Origin: Chara braunii
Lineage: Eukaryota; Plantae; Charophyceae
Direction: 5' to 3'
Assembly: GCA_003427395.1 (NCBI GenBank)
Contig: BFEA01000026.1
Coordinates: 4,080,404-4,144,403 of the forward strand
Length of the DNA stretch: 64,000 nt
The position numbers and the translations under genes were made by a program. Below are positions 1 to 47,188 of the stretch, piece after piece (positions within the stretch are counted from its first letter, which is position 1; every line of letters starts with the position of its first letter). The notes below the pieces were generated by a model. The model was not told the DNA's origin, ran no database searches, and worked only from the letters and a program-made list of their open reading frames with translations.

Positions 1-619
1 TTTCTCTTGTCTGCTCTACCCCCTGGGAGTTTTGTACATATAAGGTATAAGCAATAATTGATTGGTAGTGATCAAGAGCAGTGCAATCCTTCTCAGCCTT
101 CCAATGTAATCTTCCATCAACTCTCTCTAATCATCCCTACTCAATCTTCTGTCATACCTCTTTATAGTACCCCAAATCATAAAATATCGAGTCAGGTCTA
201 TAATCTCATAATCAAATTGCATCATTTACAGCCCACTGTTAATCCTTCTTGCAAGAGAGACCCGTTCCTGAAAAGTGTGGTATGATACTCTCTCAATAGT
301 TCTCATTTTCACCAACCTTAATAGATAGCTTATCTCAGTCTGATCAGTGATAATTCTCAAAGCAGAATCTCTTATGCGATCTAAGAGAGGCTTTAAAAAC
401 TCAAACTCATCCAGGGTAGAAAGATTTCTGTCAGAGATCCGAAGACTCCCCTTCTACCTTGACTACTCTACCTTCCAACACAACTCCTACTGTCAACTGT
501 TCAGTCAAGCTGGGTTTATCATAAACAACATCTGAAAGGTAGATCTCATGTTAGACATAATCAGAGATCTCGAATCTGTGTTCAAAGGTACTAAGGAGTA
601 GGGATTTTATCATCACAGT

Positions 620-1040
620 GGAGTCTTTTTCTCTCGCTCTACCGATCTCAGCAATGACTTCCAACAAAGACATTCAATCTCTTCTGTCTTCAAATCTTTT
701 AGTAATTGAAAACTCAGGAAGCCTCTCAAATTGTCTTACTTTTTTTCCAGGTTACTTTTCTCTTTAACTTTCCAAGCCACTCCTTGGTTCTTATGAGACT
801 AATATAAGCACCTTTCTGACACTTAAAGTAGTCATCTTCCTCTTCTAGGCCCGCTGGTACATAAATCCATACGTCCAGGCTGCTTGTACTCAGGAATTTG
901 ACCACTTGAATGTGAAATATTATGTGCCCTCTCTCACAAGTCTCATATCTCAGGATCACAAAANGATTATCACACCCTATCACCTCATAGAGTTTACCCC
1001 TCACAGTAGTTATCTTGGCTACTGAGAGTATTCTTCTTGG
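620..1040 (-). pseudogene. Family A copy 4 (most diverged)
   Basis: ORF 726..1082 has RYE...KF....LDVWIYVP; downstream frames give LPEFSI / DLKTED*MSLLEV, where the conserved Trp codon appears as TGA. Confidence 0.4.
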
Positions 1041-1513
1041 ACTCTCTTCACTTTCCATGCAAACTTTATCATGGCACACCAATTGTTTTTAGATAGATTG
1101 ATATCAGGTAAGGGAGGGACTGAGAATCCATCTAAGACAGTAAATCGGGTCGACCCAGTGCAGCATTTGTTCTCTCTCTCAAGGCTCTCTTTCTCTCTCA
1201 GTACTACCTCTTCAGCAAATCCTCAGTATCTCTCATACACTGCATCAACACTTCTTTCCTTTGGGACATAGATTCTTACGTCATACACATCCAGGTATGT
1301 GAAATAGAATGTCAGTACATATAATCGTTCATGCTCCCATCCGCTCTCGACCATCTCATACCTGACAACTTCATATGAAAATGCCTCCCTCTTGCTTAGA
1401 GTATTCAGCGACCTCAGGAGACATTCGACCTTCTCTTGATTTGGACCCGAACCTCTGGCAAAATTTGACCTTCTTTGTCTAATTACTTCTGCTGAAATCT
1501 CTTTAACTCTCAT
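1019..1513 (-). pseudogene. Family A copy 3 (premature stop at 1223)
   Basis: LNTLSKREAFSY...DVYDVRIYVPK; the in-frame continuation after TGA gives REKESLERE...SVPPLPDINLSKNNWCAMIKFA, matching the copy 1 C-terminal block, and ends at TAG 1019. Confidence 0.6.
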
Positions 1514-1529
1514 GTCCACCGTTTCTTTT

Positions 1530-1918
1530 CTCTCTGGTTAATACCATGTTGATTATATCGGCAGCCAGCTAGTCCTATCACAATAGTTGTCAGGTATAGG
1601 AGGGATTGTAACAGTCTTGTACGTTACTGACATTATAACTCATTCCACTTTCTTCTTTTGCTTGATCAAGTCTGTCTTATCATCGTAAATAAATTGGATC
1701 ACGATCTCCCATAACGAATTAAAATCCTCACCATCATTGCTGCCCCCTTTCTTGACATATGAGCGAATATCATACATATCTCCCTCCAAGAACTGAGTAA
1801 GTACTATGCAGATGGTTGAGCCACAAGAATGATAACCCCAACAAGCCTCATACCTGTAACGAAATATTCCTCTCGTGGTAAATTTAGACAATTCTTTCAG
1901 AGCATCGTCGACCAGCAT
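1530..1918 (-). pseudogene. Family A copy 2 (premature stop at 1640)
   Basis: ORF 1640..1918 has GIFRYRY...FLEGDMYDIRSYVKKG; read past the TGA it continues VIMSVTYKTVTIPPIPDNYCDRTSWL, matching PKPQVPSLLTDDTSWL of copy 1. Confidence 0.65.
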
Positions 1919-2735
1919 TTGTCTCGGTCCGTTTCACTCTCTTCCTTTCAATTCCCTTCAGTGTGCTGGGAGATAATTGGGCATACCTGGTGTCAAGCTC
2001 GATTCTCTCCAGTCAATAATATCAATCTCCTTTCCCGATCCAGTGTGGTACCTCACACAAGGAAAAAAAATAAATCACAGTTAGCCGTTGTGATTCTCAA
2101 GAAAATCGAGACTTAAATGAGAATAATAAAATTGACAAGAAGCTCACAAAAATGTCAACAGTTCTCACGTCTTAATCAAAGCTCAAAGATGATGATGACC
2201 CAGGCTCGTTCCGGACAAAAAAATCCTTTCATGTCCACGGCAACGACGCCATTTTTGTCGCACTTCTTAGTCGGACCTACTTCGGGTGACCGGAAAGCCA
2301 ACAGGCTGTCACGCAGGATTTTTTGTAAGTCATTGCAATAAATAAAATAAATTAAATAATGCAAATCCCTTCCTGTTGTGTGCGTCCGGCTTCGAGCGAG
2401 ACCCTTCGATTGCGGTCTTCGCCGGTCCCCGGTCTTAGGAATCTTTTATTTTGATTCGGAACAGCAAAGAATTATGCAAGTAATAATCATAAAATTATGG
2501 GGTGCTGTACATGCATCAATTATGTCAATCTGATTTTGAGAACTGTGACAAAACATCCACGAAGGCAATCATCAAGCAAGAATAATGCAGAAAATAAGAC
2601 TGAATGACTCGAGCAAAGACAGGGGCAATTGAATGAGGGAAGAATAAGAGCTCATAATAATCTCAGAAAGTACACATAAACAAGCGTGGTCAGCACCTCT
2701 CAAGAGTCCTCACTCATCCCTCTGGTCAGTCTCTC

Positions 2736-3398
2736 TCAATCTCTTTTAACCGATCTTTTCTGGTGCCGAGTCCCACGCCCACGTACAATCTGAGACTGAG
2801 GCTTCGTGACAAAATGCCACCTGTAGCCAGCAAGCTCTGAGCACGACCAGCCAAGGTACATAATGCGGTAGTTAACCATGGAGCAAAACTCCTCCCACAA
2901 AGTAGGCAGTCCGTCCACTGAGAAAACCCCTCGTTTGAAGTAGGGAAACTCGGTGGGCTCGGTCAACGCCTCGATGTCGATCACCGCCGGAGAGATGTAT
3001 CTCTTTGCCAAACCAATCACATCCAGCCAACTAGTGTCATCTGTGAGAAGAGAAGGGACTTGAGGCTTAGGATAGTCTGTATAAAGCATTGGCCCGAAGC
3101 TGCGGATCAACGTAGTGCCACTCTCATCGAGCTCCCTCTCTCTCTGCTCAAGGTATTCGGTGGTTGAGATACAGACTGGATCGAAGTGCTCATGAGTCTC
3201 CTTGCCCTTCTTCAAGTAAGGCCTCAGATCGTGGATAGTGCCATCAACAAAACTGGTCTCGACAACGAAGATTGACAGATCTCCCTGTCCGAAACCAGTG
3301 GCACTGACATACTGATAATGAAAAGCCTCTTTGCATGAAATCCGATTGAGGTTGGCCAACACTGACTCACTGACCGACGTAGACTGAACTGTGCTCAT
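2736..3398 (-). CDS. Orphan protein, family A copy 1 (about 220 aa, intact; first ATG at MSTVQ)
   Basis: Open frame; shares LxxL..F.Y.Y, F..G...D[LIV]R.Y[LV]KKG and P.P...D.TSWL motifs with the downstream ORFs. Confidence 0.7.
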   Translation of the reverse strand: MSTVQSTSVSESVLANLNRISCKEAFHYQYVSATGFGQGDLSIFVVETSFVDGTIHDLRPYLKKGKETHEHFDPVCISTTEYLEQRERELDESGTTLIRSFGPMLYTDYPKPQVPSLLTDDTSWLDVIGLAKRYISPAVIDIEALTEPTEFPYFKRGVFSVDGLPTLWEEFCSMVNYRIMYLGWSCSELAGYRWHFVTKPQSQIVRGRGTRHQKRSVKRD

Positions 3399-3579
3399 GA
3401 GTACTCTTGCCAATACAAGTTGACCAGATAGTCTTGGAGAACTGGCTACCCAACTGAATGCTGAAACTGATAGCTAGAAACTGATCACTAGTAACTGACT
3501 GCTGATGATTAACTGCTGATTAGTTGATTGGTGAATGTCCGGATAAGTGAGCTGCTCCTATTCGGAGGCTAATCACTCA

Positions 3580-3831
3580 CTAATGGCTGCCAATAGTCCT
3601 CCTTGCTTCCTCAACAGTACCCACAGAAGTTATAGTGACAGATAGTCTGCCATTCCTATCGTGCAGGTAGTATATGTACTTGATTTTTGTGTGATTCCCC
3701 ACGAGTCCCAGTGCATATTCCATCATCATAATAGTCTGCAGATTGTATTCCTCAACTGCATTCTCCCTCCAGGTCTCCACAGTGCTCTGATACAGCGAGC
3801 AGGAGACCCTAACTGTGTTGCCGCTCTCCAT
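3580..3831 (-). CDS. Small orphan protein, family B copy 1 (83 aa)
   Basis: Intact ATG-to-stop ORF; ungapped paralog of 4688..4942. Confidence 0.7.
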   Translation of the reverse strand: MESGNTVRVSCSLYQSTVETWRENAVEEYNLQTIMMMEYALGLVGNHTKIKYIYYLHDRNGRLSVTITSVGTVEEARRTIGSH

Positions 3832-4687
3832 ATCCTCACTTCGCTACATCAATTCACCCAACTTGAGACAGGTGACTCTCGGATGATTCAGGTACAAAAA
3901 GGCTATTGGGTTGATTGCCGAACTGCTGAAAGCTGGTTGCTGATAACTAACTGTTGTTTTCTGAGTGCCGCACCTTGATGCCGATTAGGAAACTGAACGA
4001 TTGCTGATCTGACTGCGTTTTCTGATTACTTGTTGATCTAATTGTTGATCTGAATACCTCCTCTGAATGCCGGTTAGGATGCTGATTGGATGTAGGATGA
4101 TTGCTGTTTGATTGTCTGCCTTGAATATTTGCTCTGAAGTGTTGTTCTGATAAGCTGTTCTAAGGTACTGTTCTGAAGCACCGTTCTAATATACTTTTAT
4201 GAAATGTTGTTATGAAGTTAATTAACCCCTGATCGAGGAACAGGATATCACTGAATAAGTGATGACTTGGGGAGCTGAGTATTGCTAACTAGTATTTCGG
4301 CATCTGAGACTTTGGTTGAACGCTGATGAAGTTTTGATCACACACTTGCACAATTTCAGGCCACTCGCTAGCAACGTGGTGTGTCGATTGATAGATGAAA
4401 GATCACTTTCTAAGAAATGACTGTGTGCCGCTGGGTCTCGCCAACTGCACTGAGTACTGGTCACCGCCAACAGCGCTGAATACTACACGAAATGTGTATT
4501 GGCAGTGCACCAATCAAACGTTGATTGATACCGAATTGCACGCTGATTAGCCGATGCCTGGTCAGATTAGTTGACAGCTGCTCACGTACAAGTTTGAACA
4601 TTAACTGATTATTGGTCAAACAAGCAGACTTTAGGCACCACTGTGCTACGTCAACACACATCAAACACCCTTCACTCTTCTTAACCT

Positions 4688-4942
4688 TTACTGGCTGGCA
4701 TTGATGATCTCCCGGGCTCGCTCAATTGTCTCAGCGGAGGAATAAGTGCTGTGTATTTTCCCATCGGTTCCGCGGAAATAGGTGACGTACTCAATAAATC
4801 TTTTTTCCCCTGCTATTCTGACTGCATGTTCCCTTTGAAGTTGCTTATTAGAGCTCCCATCACGGCATGCGTCACCTTCCCATCCTTCCCCTTTGTCTCT
4901 GTTCACCCAACACTTTATCACCAGCACTTCTTCACTCGCCAT
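4688..4942 (-). CDS. Small orphan protein, family B copy 2 (84 aa)
   Basis: Intact ATG-to-stop ORF; aligns without gaps to 3580..3831 with 20/83 identities by manual count (including C11, W21, E38-x-A40, G45, I50-x-Y52-xx-Y55, G61, T72-x-E74-x-AR). Confidence 0.7.
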   Translation of the reverse strand: MASEEVLVIKCWVNRDKGEGWEGDACRDGSSNKQLQREHAVRIAGEKRFIEYVTYFRGTDGKIHSTYSSAETIERAREIINASQ

Positions 4943-6232
4943 GGTTTTCTCACACTTTCAACCTCGATCATGAATGGACTGACTGTGCCTTATATTGGTG
5001 GGGTCAAGCACACAACAGACTACCGCTACGAGCTTAGGAGGCTTCCCAAGGGTCTCTACCTGAATGTATAGAGTTGATAAGAGAGAGTTGGACTCACTCT
5101 TTTACGTGTCTGAACCCGAATATGCAGAACTTACGGATAATGTATAACTGACTTTGCCCGATATCATTCAAATTCTAGGCTAGCCCTTCAGATTTCCGCA
5201 TGAGTCCACGAGAGGGCCATTAAGGTTCAACCTGAGTTTTACTTGTCTGAAACCGAGTCAAAATTACTCGAGGTTGGTTGTCCAAGTCTGATTTGCCTGA
5301 CAATCAATGCACAGCTGGCATCAACTTCATCTGATATTTACGCATTGGCTGGCTCCATCTCCATCCAACTTTCAACATATAAGATAACACTCGCTGCTTA
5401 TCCTTGGCCTCTACTGTCGGCTAGATCACGCAAGGACAAATTTGTTGAGAAGCGGCGTACTTCCCTAATGTTATGACCTCGTAGGGCTTCAAACATGACC
5501 CAACCAGGTTTTGCTCAATTTTCAGTTCTAAATACTGGGGGAAATTTCAGGGCATACGTCGTGCGGAGAGGCCATACGAAATGGGCCCTATTCAGACATG
5601 GCTCCGAGGCGCACAACGATTCAACCCGCCCGTTGTCGGTTACCCAACAAGCCTGCAACTTAAGCCTGTGAGTAACTCAACAGTTAGTCACTATCCATAA
5701 GGGACTTGGCCAATAAATACACGATTTCCCTTAGGACGCGCTGCCTTTTGCCCATCCAAAACTTACTTTAATCACGAACTTCAGTACTCACCAAGACTCG
5801 CCCGAGACAAAACAGACCAGTGTAAACAGACAGGTCCCACCCTTCGAGTTTGTCCACTCAGTACGCACTTTGGTTCCCCGAAAGATCAAACTCACGGTTG
5901 AGACTCTCGTCTGAACGGTGATATGAACCCAGAGACGATAGAAGAGTTAAATGAATAAGCAAGTAAAAGGGATTTTCCTTTTTCGAATCACTGCCAGCCA
6001 ACCACTTTATTTACCAGGCAACTTTTAGTATGTTTGCTCAAGCTTTCATGGTGACTGCAATTTCCAGCATCGTCAGCCTTATTTCACGGTAGTTTTCAGT
6101 TGACTACTGAAGTAGCCTAGAGAAACATTCACATGCTCAGCTATTTTCTGATCAAGAATGAACTTGCACAACCACAAATAGGTATACGATTAGACGCACA
6201 CGTGTAAACCTTGACGGCCATACACTCATGTA

Positions 6233-6495
6233 GTCAACAGTATAATCGTGCAGCGCAGTTGCACTATGTGATCGCATGACAATAGTCACACCGTGTAATC
6301 ACGCAGCAGTGTAATTACACAGTATAGCCATGTCGTGCGGTCACGCTATGTGATCGCATGGCATCAGTCACACAGTGTAATCACGCAGAAGTGTAGCCAC
6401 ACAGTATAGCCATGCCGTGCGGTCACACTATGTGATCGCGCGACATTAGTCACACAGTGTAATAACGCAGCAGTGCAACNACATCGTATGATCAA
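6233..6495. repeat. Minisatellite, about 82-bp unit, about 3 copies
   Basis: gtcacacagtgtaatcacgcag...ctatgtgatcgc recurs at about 6285, 6367 and 6449, with a partial unit at 6233. Confidence 0.85.
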
Positions 6496-9468
6496 CACTG
6501 TGTTGTCACACACAAATGATAGAAAACGAAAAAGGGGTTGAATTCTTATTGCATTCTTGACTTCCACTTTGTGGGGCCTAAGCTCTTGAATACAAGGAAG
6601 TACTTCTCTTTAACCTTGCCAAGAAGTCACGTAGCCCACTCATTATAAGCAGCACACCAAAACAGACAAAACCCGCTAAAAATTAAATTTACTCAACCCC
6701 AACCTCGCTAAAAACTTGAACCAACCTACCATACACTGAATTACTTCAGTGATAGGTACGATTGAATCGATGTTACGAACTGAGGCTACCCCTTCGTTCA
6801 TACACCTACACGGTCTATTGAGAGCTTATTTCTTCTTTATTGTGCAGTATGATCAATAAATGACGATCAATCGCACTGGTTACCTGAACTAAGAGGGAGA
6901 CTAAAATTTAGTGAAAACGGAAAGAGAATTGTATCTTGCGTGACTCAGCATCTTATCTGAAATCTTGGTTGAGACNGTTATAGAGAAAACACATTAACGA
7001 CTCTTAATTGCNATCCCCTTATCAGGTTGAAAGTCACACTATAGTGACAGGGTGGTAGTCGTNAGTGCCTGCCGCCGGGTGAGTGAAGCCCTCTTCCTCG
7101 CAGATCTAGCTCATCTCAAACTCTATCTGCTCGTAGATAANTGACGCCCACCCTGAAGTTCTCTCCAGTCGGATCTTGAAATTCCTTTGGAGCCGCTGTC
7201 GTCAGCAAAAGAAGACGCTTCCTCCCCTTACCCTCCGTATACTCACATCTCCCTTTATTACTTCCCTTTTTGTGGCGCTCTGGATAAGGACCGATACACT
7301 AGGATCGACGTCAACCCTGGAACTCAACCATACCTCGCGTGAACCATTCCTCCGTTGCCACCCGACACCCTTTTCTCGCATTCCCCCGCCGAATGTCATA
7401 AGCTGGCATGACACGCGCGTCGTCGCTCCACTGTTTGACTTCAACCACCCCGCTTTCTCTCACGCGAGCCGATCTTTTCTCGCTTTCCTGGGCGGCCGCG
7501 CGTAACCTGTGTACTGCGCGCTTTCCTGATCACTCACTTCGTTCATGCACCTTCACCGAGTGAGCGAGGAGCACTCTAACAATATGCCGCTCTGGNGAAA
7601 TACGCAAGAGGTTCCCATGACCGAACGCCCGCTGAGTGACAAAGGAGAAGACCTCTTGGCAGGTCACTCTGGCACAATATTCCAACTCACCACAGCTCTA
7701 CAGTCGCTAGACGCCTTGAACGAGACGGGCAGCGGTTAACGTCAACCATACCTAGCAAGATCGTGTACTGCTCACCAGTGCTGCTCCTCTCTCTCGTTGG
7801 CTTCTCCTTGCTCTCTGATCTAAACGTGTCGTTCTCCCCTCTATTCCATGGGGTCTAAGTACGAAGTCATGCGAGCTTGCACGGGTCGGTTGACGTCAGT
7901 CGCTCTCCATAACCTTATCCCGTTCTCGCTCACGCCCACACTTGTTGACTGCCCTCTTCTTTCAGGCCTAGCCACCTGTCGCGCTTGTCGCTCTCTCTCC
8001 CTCTCTCTCCGGACACCACTCACTCTATTCAGACAGGTACGTCATTATCTCTCCATCATTGTTGTAGATGCTAAGCAATCACGAGAGCTTGCGAACAGTG
8101 GTTGACTTCAACCGCACTCTGCGAGTTCCCGTTCCTCTCTTCGTTGACATCTGTTCGCCCCCCCAACATATCGCATGTCCAATCTCATACCCGTTTCTTA
8201 CCTTTACTCGTTTTTTCTCCGGTCCCGCGGCCCCCGGTCCCGCGGCCTCTGGGAGTCGGTTGTCGCGAGCTGGCCTCAGGTCCCTTTTCCACCGGCTCCG
8301 CAGCTCGGTGGTGCTTTTGGATCTCCTCGGGTCTGTTCCAGGACCTGAGATCCGTCTCTCGGTCCGCCTCGCTCATTTCACTTTCCCCACCTGAGTCTCT
8401 CTCATTATGTTGTTCCTCCCTTGTCTCGGTCCCAGTTGATCACTCGGTCTCGTGATAGATGTCCGTCACCCTCNAGCCCACAGTCACCCCATCTCGTCTA
8501 CACCTCCGTTCCNCCCTGTCGCGCGCTTCGGAAATGGCAGCCTGCAGCCTCTGATCACCTCGCATCTCCTCCTCTCTCCCCCCTTCTATGCAGACCTTCA
8601 GTCGGACTACCTTTCCCCCATCATAGTTCAGAGCCGTCGTAATCAGAGGACCTTCACCCGACACTGGAACCCAGCGCACCGTGTGCCGCCAACTGCCAGG
8701 CCTATAGCCATGTAGCGCCATGACTGGTCTCAAAATCAGACAAAACCTTGGTCCTAGGCACAGACAATGGGCATCCGCTAAACGTCCGCTATTCTGTACC
8801 CTTTACCTCGGTCGATTGGCGCTCGCACAGCAAAGTGGCTGGTGCACTAACGTCACGAAGCAGTCCGCTAGCGNCCTCCTGATCAGCCNCTAGATAGCCA
8901 AGTCTCAGTCCGCTTTTTCCCTTTTTATACGATCGGTCGTATGCTGTGACCCCAACGTTCTAATCGAGGCACCCTCTGAAACTCTGCTCATCAGTAACCT
9001 GGGGCCATATAATTAATTAAATGAAACAAACAATANAATAAAAGCGGATCAAAATAAAAATAGCGAAGTCTTAGTGGCCACCGGCGACTGCAGACTTTCT
9101 GCTATCGACCCCCGTCGTTTTGCCTCGCCGAGAAGCGACTGCGACCCTGAAGCGGTGGTCCCATAACGAGATCCCGACCGTCCGAGTTCTCACCTTNAAA
9201 GAAAGCGCTGTGCTATTTTTGTTGGGTGCCCGTGTCCGATGGAAAGGAGGGGGCTTATGAATCTCCACAGGGGGGAGTGATAGGCCTCCTACCGATGCGG
9301 CCGCGGGTTGCCCTCCTTTTGGGGTCTTATCGCGCAGCACCAGATCAGCCCTCCCGACCACCGATATGGAAATGACCAGTCAGATCCGTTCGAGCCACAG
9401 ACTACAGCCGCACTTAAAAATTGGACCGTTGGCCTTCCCGCGGCATGACTGATCGAAAAAACAGTGTC

Positions 9469-9512
9469 AATAATAATAATAATAATAATAACAATAATAA
9501 TAATAATAATAT
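9469..9512. repeat. (ATA)n microsatellite
   Basis: Direct sequence. Confidence 0.9.
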
Positions 9513-10163
9513 TAATCGCTGAAAAGGAAGGGGTGGCGTCCCAGAATTTCTCCGCGCAGCACCTTNGCCTAAACAGCGATCCACGTTCACTCACAAATCT
9601 AGCACCCGACTTTCAACCTTTCGCGTTNTTTTTCTCTCTTTTACTATTTTCTTTTTCTTTTTTTCCTCTTAGTCCTTACTGTATCTGCCTCTTAACCTGG
9701 CCATCGGGGTCCTACCGCGAGGTTCGGACGAATGGGTCTGATACAGGCGATATACAAGGTAGAGCCCCGTAGGTAGAGCCCCAGACCATAAGACCGCAGT
9801 TGCAGTTCGAAAACCCAAATCGGCGGCCTTCCCTGCGAAGTGACAGATCGACAGGCGGNAAACTGAAAAATAGGAAAATTAAGTAGTAACATTAATAATA
9901 ATAATAATAATGACAATCAGTAAGCAAAAATGGAAAGGGAATTGTAACATCACAGTGGCCTGAAGCCACTGGATTTTCCCCGAGCTAAAGTGAGTTCAAA
10001 TTCGGCGCTTTGTTTCCTCTTTTCTCTTTTCCCTTTTTATCAGCGACCTCTATTTCGTACACCTAACNCATAACCCTNTAGAGGGAATCTCAGCGTGCGA
10101 CAGAAAAGACCGCGCCAGTCCTTTCACTTCCGCGTCCCAGGGCGAACCCGGCGGCTACCACGG

Positions 10164-11378
10164 TCAGAGGCCGGTTGTGCTCTGCTGTACAGCAGGGCGC
10201 CGAGCCTGCGTGGACCAATGGAAGTCTTGTGGCGCACCCCTTTTGCTGAAGGCAACGCCACCGGGACTGGTCCACATCATACTGTAGCCCAGGTACCAGG
10301 TAGGGACTTGGCACACGGAGGAGGGCCGGGACACCGCGCCCTCCGACATAATACCAACCCCCCACCCAGCGTCCCCGCTGGGTCAAAGTTTTGCGACACG
10401 ATCCAGTATATAAAACAGCTACAATCGTCGACGTTTTCTTNCACTTCCGATGTAGCTTNCGTTGACGTCCGCGCCGCACTCTTGTGCAATTCTTTAGCGC
10501 TCTCTCTCTCTCTGCGCTCGTCCGGTGTCTTAGCGCTCACCCCTTTTCTCTTTGCACTAACCATCTCTCTGCGCTAGGCTTCTCTCATAGCGCTTGTTTT
10601 CTTTTTTTGCTTTCGTCTTTCCTTTTACAGTTGCACTCTCCTCCAGCGTTCGTTCTCACTTTGTAATCCAGCCTTCTCTCTTTGCGCCTCGGCGCTAGTT
10701 TTCTCTCTTTGCGCCTCGGCGCTAGTTTTCTCTCTTTCTTGTGCCCGCTTTCTCTCTCTGCGCTAACCTCTCTTTCTCAGAGTTTTCTTCCTCGCTCAAC
10801 AACTATCTTCTCACTTAATACCTACCTTCCCTCTTAACGCTCTTCTTGTCTCTTATGCAGTGTACCATAATCCTTCATAGCCGGTGCGTTTATAGTCTTG
10901 TCTTTATAAATCTCACTCATACAGTATTCTCGGCCATAGTCCTTGGAGATAGATCCACTGTCTTTTATCCTTTGCTTAACAGCTGCTTCGCTTTACATCA
11001 TGCCTGAGGCACGCCGCAGACAGGGTAGAGGAAGAGGAGGAAGGGACGGAAAAGCAAAGGAAGAACCGCCAGCTAGGGCTCGATGGGATTATAGCTCAGA
11101 GGAGGAGGAAGAGGAGGAGCCACGAGGCTATGGCAGTTTAAGGCCATACCCTTGCTACTCGTTAGGAGGGTGGTACCAACCCCCCACCCAGCATCACAGG
11201 CCGGTTGTACTCTGCTGTACAGCAGGGCGTGAAGCCTGCGTGGACCAATGGAAGTCTTGTGGCGCACCCCTTTTGCTGAAGGCAATGCCACCGGGACTGG
11301 TCCACATCATACTATAGCCCAGGTACCAGGTAGGGACTTGGCACACGGAGGAGGGTCGGGACACCGCGCCCTCCGACA
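10164..11378. mobile_element. TRIM-like / LTR remnant: two direct repeats of about 185 bp (10164-10348, 11194-11378)
   Basis: Near-identical direct repeats 1030 bp apart, both ending in GACA; purine run AGGAGGG then TGGTACCA before the second copy; mostly non-coding interior. Confidence 0.45.
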
Positions 11379-11414
11379 GCGCGCGCTGCCCCCGCTGCCC
11401 CCGCTGCGCCAGCT

Positions 11415-11452
<38 letters not shown>

Positions 11453-11817
11453 CGCCTGTGGTTGTGGGGGTGGGGCGAGCTCTCCCCCACCAACCAATCA
11501 ATCAATCANNNNNNNNNNNNNNNNNNNNNNNNNNNNNNNNNNNNNNNNNNNNNNNNNNNNNNNNNNNNNNNNNNNNNNNNNNNNNNNNNNNNNNNNNNNN
11601 NNNNNNNNNNNNNNNNNNNNNNNNNNNNNNNNNNNNNNNNNNNNNNNNNNNNNNNNNNNNNNNNNNNNNNNNNNNNNNNNNNNNNNNNNNNNNNNNNNNN
11701 NNNNNNNNNNNNNNNNNNNNNNNNNNNNNNNNNNNNNNNNNNNNNNNNNNNNNNNNNNNNNNNNNNNNNNNNNNNNNNNNNNNNNNNNNNNNNNNNNNNN
11801 NNNNNNNNNNNNNNNNN

Positions 11818-11873
<56 letters not shown>
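11415..11873. repeat. (GT)n and (ATCA)n microsatellites flanking an assembly gap
   Basis: Direct sequence. Confidence 0.9.
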
Positions 11874-11875
<2 letters not shown>

Positions 11876-11999
11876 GGTGGGGCGGGGCGACCCCGCCCCC
11901 ACCAATCAATCAATCAATGAATCAATCAACGAAAAAAAAGAAAAAGAAGAAAAAAAACGCGTTTTAATTTTTTTTTCAAATTTCGTTGTATTTCGCCCA

Positions 12000-14025
12000 T
12001 ACCCCCCCCACCAAAAATTCATCTTTTTCGTTGTTTTTTTGTGTGGGGGGGTGGGACAGGGGATGCACCGCCACGTGGCGCTGTCAGAATGGCGAAACCC
12101 CCTCCCCTGCGGTCGCCACGTGTCCGCCAATCCGCGCGTCCGCGGAGACACGTCCGCGGGCTTTGCGGACTGGCCATGGCCGCGGACTTGGCCGCGCCTG
12201 TCCGCCGCCGGGGGGGATACATAGGTAGGTGGCATCCATATGTGTGACGGTGGAAACAGGCATTTGCAGCGGCGCAGTGGAGTCCTCGTACGTCGTCACG
12301 AATTTGTGAGCGCCCCCGCGAAGGTCCATCGCCATCGCCTTTGCATGGCGCCACGCCTATGTGTTGAGTCCAACACACGCGGGGAACGTCGTGGGGGACT
12401 TGGTGTTGAGGTTACCGTGGTCGTGCCGAGTTGGTAGGCTGTCGTATTTTCATGGTTCATGAGCATTGCAACGCACGTGCCGATGGAGGGCGGCAGCAAC
12501 GACGGACGTGCGAAGTTGACGACGATCAAGAAGACGGTCGTGGCGGCGGTCATGACAGCCGTGCTTTTTCGCTGTCAGCAGGAGAGGGCATTAGGCAGAA
12601 TGAGAGCACAGATCCGCGCACGGAGGAGGAAGACGCTTCATCACGTCCTGGTCAAAGGGCTGGATACCGTGGCCATCACCGAAGCTGCGGTTCAGGTTTG
12701 CTGCACCATGGGTTGAAGTGTTCTTCCACGAGTGACGCCGAGGTGGTGGATGAAAAGGAGGATGGGAGGGGCATGGGAAGATCTCAGGCAATGCGATGAT
12801 GCGACGGAGGAGTACTTCTGGGAGAAGCTGCGTATATCGCCACGTGTCTTTCGGGCGATGGCGATTGCATCCAGTGTGGACGAGCGCCCGCGGGATGTGT
12901 TGTCGATGTCGATGTCGACTGCAGTCGGTGTCGATCCCTTGTCTTCTCTGCTGGAGGCTTTCGATAGAGGCCGGCCATCAACGATAGAGGAAGTACACGT
13001 GGAACAGGAAAACCACAAGAAGGAAAATTGTGACTAGGAGCAGCAATGGCAACCTTTAATGGAGGTCAACCATCAACAACACGTACGACAAGGCCGTAAT
13101 TCTACGACGACGGTGAAGGTCCACCGAACAGCGACGATGAAAGGAGCAGACGGACAACAAACGACACACACACTCTAATGGGTCGTACGCCCTTGCGCAG
13201 CGAGTCGGGCCATGGCCTGCCCGGTGGCTTCTGGATTGGTCCACTGAAGACCTGCTCTTCGCCTGCCGTCCGTCCATGCCAACGTACTTCTTCGTAGACC
13301 GCCTCTTACATGTACGCCGAGGCACCCTGCCGAGGATGCAGACGTGGAAGAAGACGACAAGGACAAGCAAAAGGATGACCAGGAGCAGCAGCGGCAGCCT
13401 TCGAAAGACGTCGGTCATGAAAGGCAAGTGGGGAAGGGCAGTGGCTAGACGAGGACGGTACACCTCCAGCAAACGGCGACGAAGAGGGATGCAAAAGGCA
13501 GACCGCATTAAGGGACAAACGCCTTGTAATGTTTTTCGCCGCGGAATACAGTGGGCAATTGGAGCAAGGGGGGTCAGCTGAAGTATTCAAATTTGCCGAC
13601 CGTTCGACCCCTTTCCGTTTGGCGGCACACACTGCGAGGGAGAACACTCGCCGACGACGTCCGCGGGTGCCGGCCGATCACCAACAGTTACCGTTGGCAT
13701 AAAGTTCCTGGAAGCCGAATGTTGAAGACCCAAGATGTCCGTGCGCTGCCCGGTAGGAACTCCAATGGACCAGCCGACAGAAAAGTATTGCCGACGATGG
13801 GTGCCCTCGCTGCTCCGATTATCGTGGATCCTTGACCTCCAAGGGACCTCGGGAGGTCCCTTTGGGACTGCCACCAAATGGCTGTAGCCCGAGGATGCCC
13901 CAAGGATTCCCCAAGGAAATATTCTCACTTTTTTTTTTTCGTTTTCATCCCCGAGGATAGGTGGAACGAAATTTTCCTTGGGGGATTTATGGGCCTGAGG
14001 AGTCACAGGATTGTCTAACGAGCCC
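12000..14025 (+). mobile_element. Internally deleted PIF/Harbinger element (left end not resolved)
   Basis: 12483-12860 encodes MEGGSNDGRAKL...TPRWWMKRRMGGAWEDLRQCDD, homologous to the transposase N-terminus at 29984; the minus strand at about 13190-13420 matches the 5' part of the Myb ORF (YDP motif); TIR-like TGTCTAACGAGCCC at 14012-14025. Confidence 0.8.
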
Positions 14026-14773
14026 CCAAATCAGAGGCCCGCTCGGAGAGCGTTCTTTGAGTGATTAATATCCCCAGCCCCGGGAAACATCAAACATCAA
14101 TCTCAGTGCCACATGATGTATTAATGGGACGCTGGACCCGGTTTCCAGCAGGTGCCGCTCCCAACCAATAGATGGAGCAGCCCAATAGGTATGTCCTCAA
14201 TTCTGGCGGTTCTCTTACCACTGCCAGGATAGAGGGATGGGCCCGGTTCCCAGCACGTGCTGCTCCCCACGAATGGACTGGAGCATTGCCTTTGATTTAA
14301 AAAAAAAAAAAAAAAAAAAAAAGACATGGGGTCTCAAGATAAGACCCTGTCCATACTTAACAAAAGCAGTCAGCATTTGCAGTCGGCAGGCTGGGGCTGG
14401 AGCAAGCAGCCGGTCAGTATCAGTCCCTATTTTTCCTATCTGGCGCCCTCCCTCTGAGGGTGAAGAGATACAAAGGCAACAGCAGTTCTCCAAGGTCTAC
14501 ACAGGTCTGGCAGGCAACAGCGGTTCCGGCGCCCTCTCTCTGAGGGTGAAAAGATACAAAGGCAACAACAGCTCTCCAAGGTCTACACAGGTCTGCTCAG
14601 TTAATCCCCTGCTCTGCAGGGCAATCTATGCTGGCAGGTAGCAGCGGTGCTCTAACATGCACTTTTGGCTTTCACATAAGCCTGCTCAGTTAATCCCCTG
14701 ATTCTGCAGGGCAGTCAATGCTGGCAGGTCCCACAGCTACTCACAGTCATTGGTTCCAGTTTTGCTGTAACAC

Positions 14774-14919
14774 GGGACGCTGGACCCGATTTCCAGCAGG
14801 TGACGCTCCCCACCAATAGATGGAGCCTCTCCTCCGGTGATAGTGCTGTCTGCTCTTATCAGCAGCACTAGCACTGGAAGGGGTGCTTGTCCCAAAAAAA
14901 AAAAAAAAAAAAAAAAAAA
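14774..14919 (+). mobile_element. Structured SINE-like / LINE 3'-end repeat with poly(A)
   Basis: gggacgctggacccg...ctgctcttatcagcag followed by an A tail; further partial copies at about 14126, 14239, 15266, 54523, 54581, 55320, 55505-55560 (minus) and 57430. Confidence 0.75.
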
Positions 14920-16447
14920 GATAAGGATGCTCAAGTCATCAGCACAAGGGATCGTTTTGGAGCCTTGGCTGATGGGCCCAAGGCCTCCACGAGGCCCCAA
15001 AGTCTCCATGAGACCCCAAGGTCTCTGAGAGATGCCAATACGATTCTCTTATGGCATCTAATTCGAGGTCCCCTGTTAAGGTTCTCAGAGTTCTTCAAAC
15101 ATAGAAAGTACTGTGAATTGGTTGAATCTTGTAGTCTCCCAGTCTTTTATGAGACTTTTAGGACTGGTTATGTCACCTTTTTTTCCGGCGCCATATTGGT
15201 GAAGAGGTCCTTTTGAGTCCGTCAGTGGAAGATTGAAACAAGTAAAGACATTTTGGTGATAGCAAGGGACGTCTGACCTGGTTTCCAACAGGTGTTGCCC
15301 CCCACCAATAGAATGGAGTCATCGAAAATCGCAGCCCCCAACTGTACAGGCGCTCATACAGCCAGCGCAGTAGTGGCCTGTTCCTGATGTTCAACTATAA
15401 TAATAAAAAAAAAATGTTGGATTAACATGTAGAACAGTAGAACACTATTATGAAAAAGAGGAGAATCACGAATAACAATAAAAAAGATCCAGCGCGCGGG
15501 CGATAGGGGATCGCGAAAGCGCTACCGCAGAGAAGGTAGCGCCATGCCAGAACTGGTCGTCGGAGCGACGGGGACGAGTGAGGCGGCGCTGAGGGGGCGC
15601 CACATGGGATCGTTCCAGAAGGGCATTACTGTGCTCTTGTCGTGACCTGGTCTTGGTCGACGTTACGTCGGCAATCCTGTTGAGCCATGAGAGGATAGAG
15701 GACATAGTGGGGGCGGTGGACGGGCAGGATCTGCGCGCCGGTACATATCAGAATTGTCAACATGTCAGGGGCGTGAGCCCTTGGCTTCAGATACGGAAAC
15801 TGAAGACATGGAAGGAAACTCGTCGAGGACTGGTAATGGTCGAACCATGCTCGGGTGTAATGATGGATGAGAAGGATGGATGGAGACGGATGGAGAGTAT
15901 GTCCCTCGTGAATAGCACTTCATTGTTCTTCTTCTATTTGATTGAATGACGTGATGAGAAGATGAACTGTGCGGGGATTTGGGGAATTTGTGAAGTTGAC
16001 GCTATGAACTGTGTGTCTATTTTGTGAAAACGGGTTTGAGAGCTTGTAAATAGCATATCATAGTTCTCCTTCTATTGGGTGAAGAAATGTGGATTATTAC
16101 TTTGGGCTTATTGTATTACCTTGGAATTGTCGATTGATGTTCTAGGATTATTGAATAAGGAGAACAGCAGTAGGTTGTAATCTGGAGAATTCGTAGGTTG
16201 TGACCTGGAGAATTCGGCCCCCTGGTTTTCCTTTCGGCGGTTTGCGTGGAATGGTATCATTATTCTCCCCGCGTGGTGCCGGACTAACTGGGGTAGGGAT
16301 TGGAATTGGGACAGCAGATATAATCGATTTGAAACTCGATAAGCTGGACTAACTGGGGTGTGGATTGGAAGTGGGATTGTAGATATAAACGATTGAAATC
16401 CGATAGACTTGGGGCGAATAAGAGTGATATACAATATACAGGGAAGA

Positions 16448-18381
16448 ATGGATCAGCAACGCAAACAATTGTGTGAAATGGTGCGAGAATGTTTCATAAT
16501 CGGAAAAGAGAATCCGAATGTGGCAGAACGGTATATAGCAACCACCAGAGATGCATCGAATGATACGGTCGTAGTAGACATAGACCCTAGAGCGGCAGAA
16601 GTCACGGTGGAGTATTTGCGTAGGCATGGGGTGTTGGTGATCTTCCAAGGACTTGATGCTGCAGTGCCATTTGCCAAAAAAGAGGAATGGTTGAGATCTA
16701 TTGAAGCGGGTTGGGATCCCACCATGCTGCAAGGTCAGAAAGGCCGGGTTCGGCCGGAGGGAGCTAATGTGATTACATACCTCACTGTCAATCATGTCTT
16801 GCGAGACTGGTTAATTAATACTTTGCAGAAAGAAGACAACGCGGTGGTGGGTGGGAAATCGTGCAAAGTGCTCTACAAACAGTGGGCAACCCCAGCAGAG
16901 CAGGCCAAGGCAAGGGAAGACCTACAGGCCCAGAGATTCGGGATTAGGGTTTTGAGGGTCCCCTTCCTGGCCATGCCTTTCTTGGAAGCAGCAATAAAAA
17001 GAGAATTCGGTCAGGTACAAAAAGCATATTCACCGGAACGAAATCAGGCGGCGCCTCGATTGGTTAACCGCAGATTCGACCTCCACCCCAGGGCAAAGTC
17101 GAAGATAACCAAATATCTCAAATTTCGTTCCCGTCAGGGGTGGCATAATGTGGAGGTGGTCACCCAAGACTCGCCATGGTGTCACGATTGTCGCTGGTAC
17201 GACCACAAATCTGGTGATGCCACCTGCCCGAAAAAAGGAATGGGGACGGTGACTGGCGGACCAGCAGTGGCAGTAATAACATCCGCAGGACCGTCAGTTA
17301 CAGCAGGACCAACGGTTACAGCAGGGACTCCGTCATCATCGGGTCAATCTCCTACTCGACCTTCTCATTCAACTTCGTCCACGCCAATGGGAGATCCGGT
17401 GACCTCGGTGTTTATGAACCCAGTGTCAGTTGTTGTTAGTTCAGTACCGGGCTCTTTGGGATATAGTCCTATGAAGAGCCTGATGTCTGCAGAGCCCGCT
17501 ACTGCCACAGTGGTTGCAACGACAACTGCAACGACAACTGCAACGACAGTGGCTGCACAAGGGACACCCCAGGTAGAACCTTCGTTGACATAGATGCAGC
17601 AGCAGGCTTCACCAGGACCGGCAGTGCGAATGCAACCCCAGAAAGAACCGGTATTGACTCATCGGAAAATTCTCACCGGAGGACCGAAACAGGCAGGATA
17701 TACACCGTACCAACGTTCAGGATAGGCTCGGAAAAAGGATGACAGATTGGTTACTTGGGCAGACATGGTGGAAGACGAAGAAGATTATGAGGATGGAAAC
17801 CACCCGCCTAGAGTAGACGAACAAAATCAGCAGCATTTTCGGCGAGCGGAAGTGTTTCCTGGCTCTATCAGAGAAGCTGTAGCGGCGGGACAGCCTTGGG
17901 TGGTGATTTCGTTAGTGTTTTTGGCAGTGGAAGGGGATTTGCAACTGATGACTGCCCTCTCGCCATAAGGGACTCTTTCAATACCCCACTTTGTCATGTA
18001 CACAGAGCCGACTGTGGAATCGGTTTTGACAGAGACCCAAAAGTGACTGGCATCCGCTTACAGAGTTAGACCTTTCCCATCAATGGAATGGGTTCGGTTA
18101 ACACCTACAAATGCCCAGGGCCGAACTGACATTCTATGCTTTCCGATTATTGATGCGATTGTTAATCCAGCGGCAAAAGGAGCTGCTCTCCTGACTGGTT
18201 GAGATGGGTTTCGCTGCAGTTGTTTAAGAACCTGGGAGGACAGACTGCAACAGATACCAGAGTATACGATTGTTGGAATGCAGCGCTGCTTACCCAAGTG
18301 GATTCGCATATACCATGGCACAAAAGTATTTTTTCGAATCAGTTCCTCATGCTGAAATGTGCAGATTGGCCCGCAATGTAA
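16448..18381 (+). pseudogene. LINE ORF1 (zinc-knuckle-like WCHDCRWYDHKSGDATC, S/T/P-rich linker, C-terminal globular domain)
   Basis: The same frame continues through several stops to about 18200, then frameshifts; ends immediately before the ORF2 ATG at 18385; homologous to 34534..35230. Confidence 0.8.
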
Positions 18382-18384
18382 ACT

Positions 18385-21300
18385 ATGGACAAGATTAGAC
18401 TAGTATCATGGAATATTAGAGGATTGGGATCAAGAAGAGTAGCAATAAAGCGATCTTTGATCAAGTCTTTGGTAAGAAACAAAAGAATCCAGATTGTGTT
18501 GCTGCAAGAAACTAAGTTAAATGACACGGCGATTGTTGAACAAATGGGTTGGTGGCTGGGTGAACATTTTTGGGCCCCGGCACAAGGGACTCGGGGCGGT
18601 GTTGCCATATTGTTAACTAGGACGACGCCATTTGAAGTAACAGATCACTCCGTTGATCCTTTCGGACGCTGGGTGTGGGTAAGGATTACAGGAGGACAGG
18701 AACAGTGGGCAATCTTTAATATCTATGCCCCTATTTCGCAATCAGAGAGAGTGGATCTGTTCACATCGCTCCCGTGGATCATACCTGGAGTGGACAACCT
18801 CATCCTGGGCGGGGACTGGAATACAACCCTCGTCCTCGGGGTGGATTCCATGCGGCCGGGACCGGCCGGAAATGATGTTGCTCGGCTGACCAACTTCATC
18901 TACTCCAACGGATTCACTGACCTATTTCGAGTCTTGCACCCGTTTGAACAAGCCTTTACCTTTTTTTCGGCGGGAGCCCCGCAACAACAATACCTACCTA
19001 GAAGTCGTATAAACTTGTTTTTTGCGTCAGACACCTTGATGTCAAGACTTTCGAGATGTTTCGTTGTACCATATGTAGGATCAAATCACTTACCTTTATT
19101 TTTAGAATTCTTTCTTCACATCACTGTCAGGGTGGGAAGGGACAGGATCATGTTGCCGGAATGGGTAGTGCAGACACAAACCTTTTCCCAATTTATTTAT
19201 GAGTTTTGGCCTAAGTGGAAGACTGCCAAAGCTTTGTTCCCCTCATTGGCAGAATGGTTTCAGGGAGGACAGCGAATAGTGTTATAGAGAAACCTGCTAA
19301 TCAAGAAATTTATCCTTCTTGCTAATCGGACAGAGTTACAGAAAATAAACGAAGAATTGGCAGGAGTTATGCGTCAAGCCTCGGCGGTGACCCGGCCACA
19401 AGAGGAACACGCCTTGATGACTCGGATGGAGGATCTCAAACAACGATGGACAATGCAGGCTCAGCCAGCAATGAGGAATGTAATCCACAACAAGAGGATA
19501 GGCTGGCTGGTGAAAGGTGATCGAATGACTTCCTCCTTTTTCGCAGCTCACCGCCCGCCCATACAAAAGCAGATGATATCAGCTATTAAGCATCCGTTTG
19601 ACGATTCGGCACCGACGACAGTAGAAACAAGAACAATTGTCATTAACGTCTCATTATTCTATGAAAACCTGCTGACTTCGCAAGCGCAATGTACGGAGCA
19701 ACAGTTACTCCAGCAGTATCATGAACAGGTCTGGACTAAAGTGAATAAGAAATTGTCTAACTACCAACGTCAACGGCTGGAGGCTGATATAGACATGCAA
19801 GGAGTGGTAGATGCAATCTCATCCTTGTCATAGCATAAAGCACCGGGGTTGGATGGCCTACCGGCCCGTTTTTTTAAAGGTCTCTCGTTGCACTTGCTAC
19901 CAAAGTTGTTGCCAATCTTTCAGGCAGTCTGGAACGAAGTATCATTGTCGGCTTCGACATTGCAAGGAATTATTACTTTTGCTTACAAGAAAGGTGATCG
20001 ATCTGACATAGCAAATTATAGACCGATAACGCTAATGCCGGTGATTTACAAAATTCTGTCCAAAATAATGGCAGCCAGACTACAGAGAGTCCTTCCTTCT
20101 CTGATTCACCACACTCAGACAGGCTTTCTTGTAGGAAGACAGATTCTCCACAATGTGATGATTGTAGAACAGTTAGCTGAACTGGTAGCTGGAGGTGAGG
20201 ACAGTCTTGCCATTGTGTTGTTGGACTTGGCAAAGGCATACGACAGAGTCGGTTGGGAATTCCTGCAGGCAACACTTACCGCATTTGGATTTCGACCAAA
20301 GTATAAGCACGCAGTGGAAAGCCGTTTGCACGACGCCACTTCCACAGTCTGCGTTAACGGGATTTTATCACAGCCAATTCGACTAAGCAGGTCGGTTAGA
20401 CAGGGTTGTCCAGTGACACCGTATTTGTATTTGCTGTATGTAGAAATAATGCATATTCTAATCAGATCTAACCCGTAAATTCCGGGATTCTTACTGCCCT
20501 CAGGAGAAAGACTGAAGACGGAAGCTTTCGCTGATCACTCGGTAGCCTTTACTCCTGTCGACGACCAAGCCTTCTTCGCACTCAGAGAAACCGTAGATCT
20601 GTTTTGTCAACTATCACAAGCAAAGGTCAACTGGTCTAAATCCTTAGTTCTGATACCTCCGGGCGAACAACCTCCGCTCAACTGGGGACTCAGGATAGTG
20701 GTCCCGGGGGGACAGGAAAGGCTGCTGGGACACCAAATCTCCTTTGACACATTGTTGATATAAGATTCCTTCACATCAACAGCAGGTCTGCATTTGGCAC
20801 TGCAGCCGTGGGTCAAGTATAAAGGCGTCAGCTTGTTTGGTCGAGCAGCGATAATCAACAATGCAGTGCTGTCCACCTTGTGGTACCGTCAGGCCATTCA
20901 TCAATTGGATAGAGCGTCGTTGCAGATGATACGCCACATGCTAACCCATTATTTGTGGAAAGAAGAGATTGATGATGATAACTTTTTGCCTAAAGTGGCA
21001 TGGGAAACAGTAACTCAACCGAAACGGAATGGAGGATTAGCAATACTTGACCCGGAACGACAGATGGATGCACTCCTAGCAAGATGGGTCCCATGGGCAA
21101 TCCTGCAAAGCCCGTGCATGCCGTGGAGGCAATTGGCAGAGTTTTACATTTGTTCTTGGTTGGAATGGACCGACATCCGCTGTATTTGGCTGGCTGTACT
21201 CAATCCGGAGTATCAGCGGAAGAGATTGCCACCTGGAGTATGGGCAGGAATATTGAAAGCTTGGAGGGGTGTTTGCCCGGAATTGCAAACCCCCCCGCTA

Positions 21301-25139: not shown

Positions 25140-25972
25140 GTTGTGTAAAGTCGATGAGTCGTCGTTGCTCACGCGTAGTAATAATCGCGGGTTTTAAAAT
25201 TGACTGTGAAGGGCGTTGTTTGCTTTCATGCCCCACACCGCGTCCTGAGGTTGTACAGCAGGTCCTCCTTTTTTTTAGATAGTGTTTAAAGAACGCTGTT
25301 GTGAGTTGTTGTCCGCAGGCATGGATGGCGATCTTCCAGGGTCTTCTTTGGGAGTGTCCGCGTATGTGTAGGCGGCAGGGTTGGTTTTTTGGGACGCGAG
25401 GGAAAAATGGCGGATTGGAGTGCCTAGCCTTTTTGGGGGCGGGAGAGGACGGATGGGGGGGGGGGGGGGGGAATGGCGGGGTCTTTGTACCTCCTGCGGG
25501 AGACGACCTCCACGTCGCGAGAAAATTCGTCCGTTGTGAATCGACGAAGGGGCGGGCTGAAGTGGACGGCCTGGCCTGTCCATGGTGTGCTGCGAGACCG
25601 CGCACCGTACAAAAGGGCATTCCGGGAGGCATTCCGTACCGCTGGCATTCTATCGCGACGGCTACAAAGGCATCGTCTGTGCATGGTATCATCGTCGCAG
25701 GCGTAGTCATCCGTTTGTCACGCTACGATCGCCGGGTTTGGGCTCCGCGGGCATCCACGTCCTCCTGCATCCACGTCAGCTAAGCGGCGTGCCATCGGAC
25801 TGGTCCTTCTTCCACAGCAGCCAAGCGCCGCATCGTCAACGTCGTCCGACGGCAAGGTGCCCGTCATCAACCTCCCGCCGCTCCTTCATCGTCGTCGTCC
25901 ACGTGGTCCGTCGTCCACGTCAGCCAAGCGCCGCAGCTTTCTGCATTCGGCACGCACTTCTTTGTGGACGAC

Positions 25973-44176: not shown

Positions 44177-44290
44177 CAAGATTGAGATCGGGCATACGCG
44201 GAATGGGCGGCGATGGCACGATAGTCTCCTTAAGGAGCGTCGCCGCGCTCCCAGACACAGGGTCATGAATCCGCGTACGTGAGGGCTGAA

Positions 44291-47181: not shown

Positions 47182-47188
47182 TCCGTAC

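What the first reader, a model, noticed from the sequence alone, without database searches (positions are those of the whole stretch)
620..4942. Cassette of six small, intronless, co-oriented orphan genes in two paralog families
Seen: six minus-strand frames packed into 4.3 kb, ordered B2, B1, A1, A2, A3, A4. Paralogs keep protein motifs although DNA similarity is not obvious by eye, which implies long selection at the protein level after duplication. The spacers around B1 are low-complexity TCAG/ATCAG-rich, and a TATA-like AATATAAG lies about 50 bp upstream of B2. Inference: compact intronless arrays like this are typical of viral or transposon accessory cassettes rather than host genes. It could be a cargo module (anti-silencing, movement or host-interaction proteins) of a large mobile element whose core genes lie left of the window. 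I recognise no known domain.
Basis: partly seen in the sequence, partly recalled or inferred. Interest (0 to 1): 0.8.

Follow-up and report, generated by a model that had tools for sequence, protein, structure and literature searches.

The report
Accessory genes straddling a retrotransposon LTR
The six small genes are real relatives in two families of unknown fold, carried by a repeated jumping gene of the alga Chara; the end of its terminal repeat falls in the middle of the row, so three genes sit behind it (all three broken in this copy) and one to three likely sit inside the repeat itself, a place that normally codes for nothing.

Summary
The six minus-strand frames exist, and both families are real (B2~B1 z 15; A1~A2~A3 z 7-15; A4 weaker, confirmed through homologues). 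They are not six intact genes in one cassette. A2 and A3 stop early and A4 breaks near 746, while intact 131-164 aa homologues run on. An LTR end (GTGCGACA, 2256) and a tRNA-Asp/Asn primer-binding site (2239-2251) lie between A1 and A2. So A2-A4 are leader genes of an LTR retrotransposon whose gag-pol would lie left of the window, and A1 likely lies inside the LTR. B1, B2 and a seventh frame (8185-8721) may too: the matching inverted terminus is at 10102, which would make a 7.8-kb LTR (about even odds). Relatives were found only in Chara braunii gene models and unnamed short contigs. No known domain or fold; a dsRNA-binding-domain idea failed its test; expression is not shown. Likely role: small soluble binding proteins that blunt host silencing (about 0.3, untested). 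The scan earlier noted accessory arrays before gag on other DNA of this genome, and genes inside LTRs in other genomes. New variant of a known kind.

The parts
10095..10102 (-). Candidate 5' end of the LTR (TGTCGCAC), perfect inverted partner of the 3' end
   Evidence: The 8-mer occurs only twice in 64 kb, here and at 2256; 114 of 1000 shuffles of 2264-12000 hold it by chance, so support is moderate
8185..8721 (-).
   Evidence: 66% identical to residues 1-174 of Chara gene model P0001, which continues into A1 at 86%; no Pfam or PHROG family
6237..6489 (.). 82-base tandem repeat, about 3 copies, inside the candidate LTR
4989..4996 (-). TATA-like AATATAAG before B2
   Evidence: sequence; function not tested
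4688..4942 (-). B2, 84 aa, open; family B; rare among copies at 80% likeness
   Evidence: summed contig depth 0.02-0.03 of the internal part; model pLDDT 69, order beta-alpha-beta-beta-alpha
3580..3831 (-). B1, 83 aa, open; family B
   Evidence: depth 0.30-0.44 of the internal part; one contig of another study bridges B1 and A1 (table 8)
2736..3398 (-). A1, 220 aa, open; A domain (about 130 aa) plus a C-terminal extension; ends 480 bases before the LTR end, likely inside the LTR
   Evidence: own orthologues P0001, P0002; depth 1.8-3.1 times the internal part
2256..2263 (-). 3' end of the LTR (GTGCGACA)
   Evidence: contigs and reads with this terminus run on into unlike sequence (loose ends at 2279 in 54-66 contigs a run); depth of 2377-2592 is 6-17 times the internal part
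2239..2251 (-). Primer-binding site, 12 of 13 letters match the tRNA-Asp/Asn site, 4 A after the LTR end
   Evidence: only match in the window, 0.08 expected, 6 of 100 shuffles; motif from the passage
1538..1918 (-). A2, first leader gene; broken: early stop at 1640-1642 and a further stop, similarity runs to about 1556
   Evidence: 39% to intact P0005 over 113 residues across the stop; tree groups it with P0005 at 91/86
1019..1513 (-). A3; broken: early stop at 1223-1225, similarity runs to about 1043
   Evidence: 51% to intact P0004 over 152 residues across the stop; 65% to P0006
726..1058 (-). A4, most diverged; broken near 746
   Evidence: 29% to P0003 over 72 residues, ending at 747; 8-12 contigs a run differ by a small indel at 746 (table 4)
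1..555 (-). Further decayed coding-like stretch (D), many stops; a 17-residue piece at 372-322 faintly resembles family B
   Evidence: B profile score 5.3 bits, E 0.81 window-wide; 2 of 1000 shuffles reach it, but it was picked after the fact and pairwise tests are weak; as repeated as A2-A4

Best explanation
The six frames are accessory genes of a repeated element in the alga Chara, and an LTR end with a primer-binding site lies between A1 and A2, which makes the element most likely an LTR retrotransposon whose gag-pol would lie left of the window and whose small proteins would likely blunt host silencing (untested). Shown: the frames, the two families, the breaks in A2-A4, the terminus plus primer site, the repetition, the Chara-only named relatives. 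Inferred: A2-A4 lie in the leader of the genomic RNA and would be read from it or from a spliced form. A1 (about 0.75), and B1, B2 and ORF C (about 0.5), lie in the U3 part of a long LTR; they would sit at the 3' end of the RNA, be copied into both repeats at reverse transcription, stay behind in solo LTRs, and be expressed from promoters of their own (TATA-like boxes before B2 and C). The A family arose by old duplications, one of which crossed the LTR end: LTR-side A1 is sister to A2, the first leader gene. Each paralogue then kept its own orthologues. The proteins are soluble alpha/beta modules with conserved hydrophobic, proline and tryptophan positions, read as binding proteins and not enzymes; countering host silencing is my single best guess for their job (about 0.3). 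This copy is a decayed one. The confidence figure is for the architecture (accessory array of an LTR element, split by the LTR end, A1 inside the LTR), not for the function.
For: Terminus + 4 A + primer site (motif and the 3-6 base AT-rich gap as in the Athila passage). The depth step and loose ends fall at that place. A1 is 1.8-3.1 times and the LTR end 6-17 times as deep as the internal genes in 4 of 4 runs, as expected for paired and solo LTRs. No gag, pol or other Pfam family in six frames of 1-10200 (0 of 6), so the DNA right of the terminus is not the coding body of an upstream element. Perfect inverted terminus at 10102. P0001 holds ORF C and A1 in the same order at another locus. Of 7 hits among 1.84 billion proteins, 3 are Chara braunii models with RVT_1 after the A piece and 4 are stand-alone 121-161 aa proteins on short unnamed contigs; add two more (131 and 164 aa). 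Tree: A1 clade 100/99, A3 clade 100/99, A1+A2 97/95. Highest 19-residue hydropathy 1.15 or less in 7 of 7 proteins.
Against: The second LTR, target-site duplication, polypurine tract and gag-pol are not in the window and no genome is held. The three gene models are automatic predictions in a genome full of Gypsy pieces, so their reverse transcriptase need not belong to this element. The terminus at 10102 could be chance (114 of 1000 shuffles). 4100-6470 is about 30-100 times shallower than the internal genes, which a uniform LTR would not be; faster change in U3 (ORF C 66% against A1 86% in one locus) or a rare insertion must be assumed. No consensus TATA box lies between A1 and the LTR end, so the U3/R border is not placed. 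Summed contig depth is no copy number, and X1-X4 are one sample that may be the source of the assembly. The tree tool warns of long-branch joins at the A1+A2 fork. Expression is not shown. Nothing here tests the function.
Confidence: 0.7

Rival explanations
1. The LTR is short or of middling length (ending at 2256, starting left of about 3900); B2, ORF C and the rest of 3900-10102 are a rare insertion, a rearranged piece, or the 3' tail of a neighbouring copy of the family. The genes are then ordinary 5' and 3' extra ORFs.
For: Depth falls about tenfold at 3450 and again at 3900; single contigs skip 2767-3464, 3402-3922 or 3403-3592 (table 5); the far terminus has an 11% chance background.
Against: No purine tract followed by a matching TG start was found between 2256 and 3900: the look-alikes at 2550, 2811 and 3640 have none; no pol remnant; P0001 links ORF C to A1 elsewhere; B2 is a paralogue of B1, so it belongs to the family.
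Confidence: 0.25
2. The proteins serve the element's own RNA or particle (RNA binding, export, packaging), for example as a far-diverged double-stranded-RNA-binding fold, and do not act on the host.
For: The predicted order in A1 is helix, three strands, helix, which is the dsRBD order (recalled); a weak DRBM likeness was reported for Tekay 5' extra ORFs (PMC11728184, passages).
Against: No dsrm hit in Pfam for 8 of 8 A proteins at E up to 10; profile against 28 bacterial RNase III dsRBDs: probability 0.15%, 27 of 60 column shuffles as good; A proteins are not basic (pI 5.9-7.7); the A1 model is poor (pLDDT 47).
Confidence: 0.15
3. A remnant of an endogenous virus, or captured host genes, carried as passengers.
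For: Small, packed, intron-free frames look viral; no relatives among named proteins of other organisms.
Against: No true hit in IMG/VR (the one locus is a shadow frame opposite a long phage gene), PHROGs (0 of 7) or BFVD (best E 0.013 and 0.069); each paralogue has its own conserved orthologues, which passengers would not keep; a tRNA primer site beside a CA end is a retroelement mark.
Confidence: 0.07

Closest known systems
5' sense extra ORFs of plant Ty3/Gypsy elements: ORF0 of rice Retrosat2/RIRE3/RIRE8 (PMC3485330, passages), Ogre and Tekay extra ORFs (PMC6317226, passages and section 13; PMC11728184, passages)
   Same: Extra genes of unknown function between the primer site and gag, long LTRs with short inverted termini, fast divergence, tandem repeats in non-coding parts.
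   Different: There one or two larger ORFs (the survey counted only 250 codons or more); here a row of paralogues of 83-220 aa, with the same family on both sides of the LTR end. No sequence likeness found.
sag of mouse mammary tumour virus (PMC4667437, passages)
   Same: A protein gene mostly inside U3, kept in solo LTRs, with several promoters.
   Different: One gene of a retrovirus; here likely one to four genes in an algal retrotransposon, with paralogues in the leader. Layout likeness only.
[quoted passage not shown]
   Same: Accessory genes both ahead of gag (orf c, presumed read from the genomic RNA) and elsewhere; a gene duplication is named in a cited title.
   Different: A fish retrovirus with host-derived, characterised proteins; no homology tested or expected.
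Athila lineage (bioRxiv 10.64898/2026.03.20.713144, passages)
   Same: tRNA-Asp/Asn primer site and a short AT-rich gap after the LTR end.
   Different: Athila LTRs there are 1-2 kb; the reverse transcriptase that defines the lineage is not in the window; no Athila ORF1 family hit.

Membership tests
LTR retrotransposon | LTR 3' end in CA with a tRNA primer-binding site a few bases behind | tested here: met
   2256 and 2239-2251, 12 of 13 letters; loose ends and depth step there
LTR retrotransposon | LTR 5' end in TG, inverted to the 3' end | tested here: inconclusive
LTR retrotransposon | Dispersed repeat in the genome | tested here: met
   12,499-15,203 contigs laid a run, most 80-95% alike
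LTR retrotransposon | Paired LTRs, target-site duplication, polypurine tract | not testable with these tools
   element runs off the left end; no genome held
Ty3/Gypsy | gag and pol in the order RT-RH-INT in the same element | not testable with these tools
   none in 1-10200; only automatic gene models join A pieces to RVT_1
Athila lineage | tRNA-Asp/Asn primer site | tested here: met
   other non-chromoviruses use tRNA-Asp too
Athila lineage | RT/RH/INT phylogeny | not testable with these tools
   no pol of this element in hand
LTR-encoded accessory gene (sag-like layout) | Whole ORF between the two ends of the LTR, in both LTR copies and in solo LTRs | tested here: inconclusive
   A1 ends 480 bases before the LTR end, depth 1.8-3.1 times internal; far end uncertain; second LTR unseen
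dsRBD/DRBM fold | Sequence profile match | tested here: not met
   (bacterial dsRBD profile only, thin A profile)
dsRBD/DRBM fold | Structural match | tested here: inconclusive
   low-confidence whole-protein model; domain not folded alone; best Z 5.2 to unrelated chains

The most novel reading that the evidence does not exclude
A Chara retrotransposon lineage uses a 7.8-kb LTR, longer than the 6.5 kb given for Ogre, as a modular gene cassette of at least four genes, whose content differs between subfamilies and which trades paralogues with the leader across the LTR end; each solo LTR would then remain a small operon of counter-defence proteins of two undescribed families.
Probability: 0.3. 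Interest if true: 0.75.

Novelty: new variant of a known kind. Interest (0 to 1): 0.52.

Why it matters
Extra ORFs of plant LTR retrotransposons are common, but their function is an open question (PMC6317226 section 13; PMC11728184 passages), and surveys set a floor of 250 codons that would miss all six here. A family duplicated at least four times, kept as separate orthologous lines and placed both inside and behind the LTR would be a sign of an arms race in the algal sisters of land plants, and gives small soluble proteins that can be tested directly. If solo LTRs keep these genes, they would outlive the element's core. The caveat is that this copy is decayed and that the scan has seen related layouts before.

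Tried and rejected
Homologue search by shared words: A1 none of 145 candidates, B alignment none of 3; family B was not run against the 50% representatives (one job only, spent on A), so its rarity is less well tested. ESM Atlas blank for A1 and B2 (no evidence either way). Pfam: no hit near a cut-off for the six frames. PDB sequences: only designed helical proteins, E 0.02 or worse. Folds: B2 best Z 6.8 (kinesin piece, rmsd 2.7, 70 aligned), among Rubisco small-subunit and fibronectin rows, within background; no Foldseek hit at E 0.001; A1 best Z 5.2; no dsRBD listed, which does not exclude it. JGI metagenomes: 0 of 31 and 0 of 57 candidates. IMG/VR: none, L001 rejected. Rfam: only sub-threshold miRNA-like hits, one on the tandem repeat. 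No tRNA gene in the window. No listed RNA holder. RNA reads: 29 of 8.9 million (X5), 19 of 16.2 million (X7), 1302 of 16.7 million (X6); X6 covers both strands equally (215 against 221, r 0.87) and follows the DNA profile, so DNA carry-over or two-way transcription cannot be told apart; no splice joint seen; 6-13% of each run was read. Idea that A2+A3 form one polyprotein (same frame): dropped, as homologues are separate 139-164 aa proteins. A fifth A unit in 1-620: not found by two profiles. Differences to other copies: 9 of 21 synonymous (A1 5 of 8, A2-A4 4 of 13), from cut tables (40 rows shown of 1154 and of 544; rows outside the A frames dropped), too few for a selection test. Earlier findings by sequence: none. 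Literature searches for a description of these genes or of genes inside plant LTRs: searches listed none; the Chara genome paper and Steinbauerova et al. 2011 (both recalled) were not in the listings and, with their supplements, may bear on novelty.
Full report
Observation. B2 and B1 align without gaps over 82 residues at 24% (E 3e-10; z 14.9). A1, A2 and A3 are mutually related (z 7.0-15.3, 0 of 2000 shuffles), A4 only weakly (4, 15 and 1104 of 2000), and A and B are unrelated (8 of 8 pairs at chance; profile probability 0.2%). The likeness sits in the coding frame and is not seen at DNA level, which by established reasoning means long selection on the proteins. The TCAG-rich spacers and the TATA-like 8-mer are there.

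Three frames are fragments. A1 matches the frame of A2 beyond its stop. A profile search of 1.84 billion proteins gave 7 hits; a cluster look-up and a second search added two. Six are stand-alone proteins of 121-164 aa on unnamed contigs of 513-737 bases. They align across the stops of A2 (39% over 113) and A3 (51% over 152) and with A4 up to 747, where other copies differ by a small indel. So the unit is about 130-165 aa and this copy is decayed. The other three hits are Chara braunii gene models with a reverse-transcriptase piece after the A piece. These name the host genus; the rest of the window is a field of Gypsy, LINE and Harbinger-type pieces. In a 13-row tree A1 and A3 each have their own well-supported orthologues, A2 groups with P0005, and A1+A2 form a fork at 97/95, with a long-branch warning.

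The row is cut by an LTR end. On the minus strand GTGCGACA ends at 2256, four A follow, then a 12-of-13 match to the tRNA-Asp/Asn primer site given for Athila, where a 3-6 base AT-rich gap is also described (bioRxiv 10.64898/2026.03.20.713144, passages). It is the only match in the window (0.08 expected). Genomic contigs of four runs (one sample) cover 1-3900 thousands deep; 54-66 contigs a run carry this terminus and then run on into unlike sequence. Relative to A2-A4, summed depth is 6-17 times at the LTR end, 1.8-3.1 at A1, 0.3-0.4 at B1, 0.02-0.03 at B2; the tool warns that such sums are no copy numbers. Thus A2-A4 and a further decayed stretch lie in the leader, and gag-pol would follow left of the window (inferred).

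How far does the LTR reach? The inverted 8-mer occurs once more in 64 kb, at 10095-10102, which would give 7,847 bases; chance gives one in 114 of 1000 shuffles. No Pfam family lies in six frames of 1-10200, and I found no purine tract with a matching start nearer in. A seventh frame, C (8185-8721), is 66% identical to the start of model P0001, which goes on into A1 at 86%: the two are linked at another locus too. Against this, 4100-6470 is shallow, so most copies lack it or differ by more than 20%, and single contigs skip A1- or B1-sized pieces. I put A1 inside the LTR at about 0.75 and the full 7.8 kb at about 0.5. Published ranges seen: up to about 5 kb (PMC6317226, section 13) and 1.9-6.5 kb for Ogre (PMC6431247, passages).

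Expression. Two RNA runs are nearly empty; a third has 1302 reads on both strands in a DNA-like profile, 7 of them 99% alike or more. Expression is not shown and not excluded.

Proteins. No family, fold or atlas match. B2 is modelled as a small alpha/beta domain (pLDDT 69, two-row alignment); A1 is poor (47), with helix, three strands, long helix, then a proline stretch and a tryptophan helix. That order recalled the dsRNA-binding domain, and a weak DRBM likeness is reported for Tekay extra ORFs (PMC11728184, passages), but the profile test was negative. No membrane segment in 7 of 7. Invariant columns in nine rows are M, F, D, Y, L, which reads as structure more than catalysis (inference).

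Mechanism. Established: U3 lies at the 3' end of the RNA, is copied into both LTRs and survives in solo LTRs; MMTV sag shows that a gene can live there with its own promoters (PMC4667437, passages), and WDSV orf c that a gene ahead of gag is presumed read from the genomic RNA (PMC3185748, passages). Inferred: the same two routes serve A1/B/C and A2-A4. Repeated duplication, divergence to 20-40% identity and module turnover fit conflict with the host; I favour interference with silencing (about 0.3), by analogy with VANC as summarised, over service to the element's own RNA (0.15). Nothing tests it.

Novelty. Extra 5' ORFs are well known. My searches listed no description of these families or of a paralogue family on both sides of an LTR end; the library lacks many subscription papers. 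Earlier notes of this scan describe arrays before gag on another piece of this genome, which led me to look for a primer site, and single genes inside LTRs in other genomes; whether their families equal A or B I could not test. Verdict: real, a new variant of a known kind, interest 0.52.

Noticed in passing
window 41216-53700: A separate minus-strand Gypsy element with gag, RT, RNase H and integrase pieces between two repeats 96-97% alike over about 1.8 kb.
   Followed up: partly
window 16397-22614: Plus-strand LINE-like element with endonuclease-like and RT frames broken by stops.
   Followed up: no
window 23868-30071: Myb/SANT gene and DDE_Tnp_4 transposase facing each other, the Harbinger layout (recalled), with further frames between.
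   Followed up: no
window 14122-15318, 54578-56957, 63689-63831: Dispersed 57-143 base repeat in at least 8 copies, with an inverted copy at 55513-55567 that forms a 55-base inverted pair 145 bases apart; MITE-like.
   Followed up: no
window 6480-10459: 19 single N positions cluster here, mostly within the candidate LTR, as if two similar copies or alleles were merged in assembly.
   Followed up: no
window 2052-2085 (minus): Branch-point-like GCTAAC, pyrimidine tract and AG in the leader before A2; a possible splice acceptor; no joint seen in RNA.
   Followed up: partly
window 10164-10348 and 11194-11378: 185-base direct repeat, 96% alike, just outside the candidate LTR start.
   Followed up: no
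window 9932-9970: Purine run followed by TGTAAC and a short hairpin on the plus strand, like the start of another LTR in the opposite direction.
   Followed up: no
window 63041-63441: Two long near-perfect hairpins (57 and 47 base arms) side by side.
   Followed up: no
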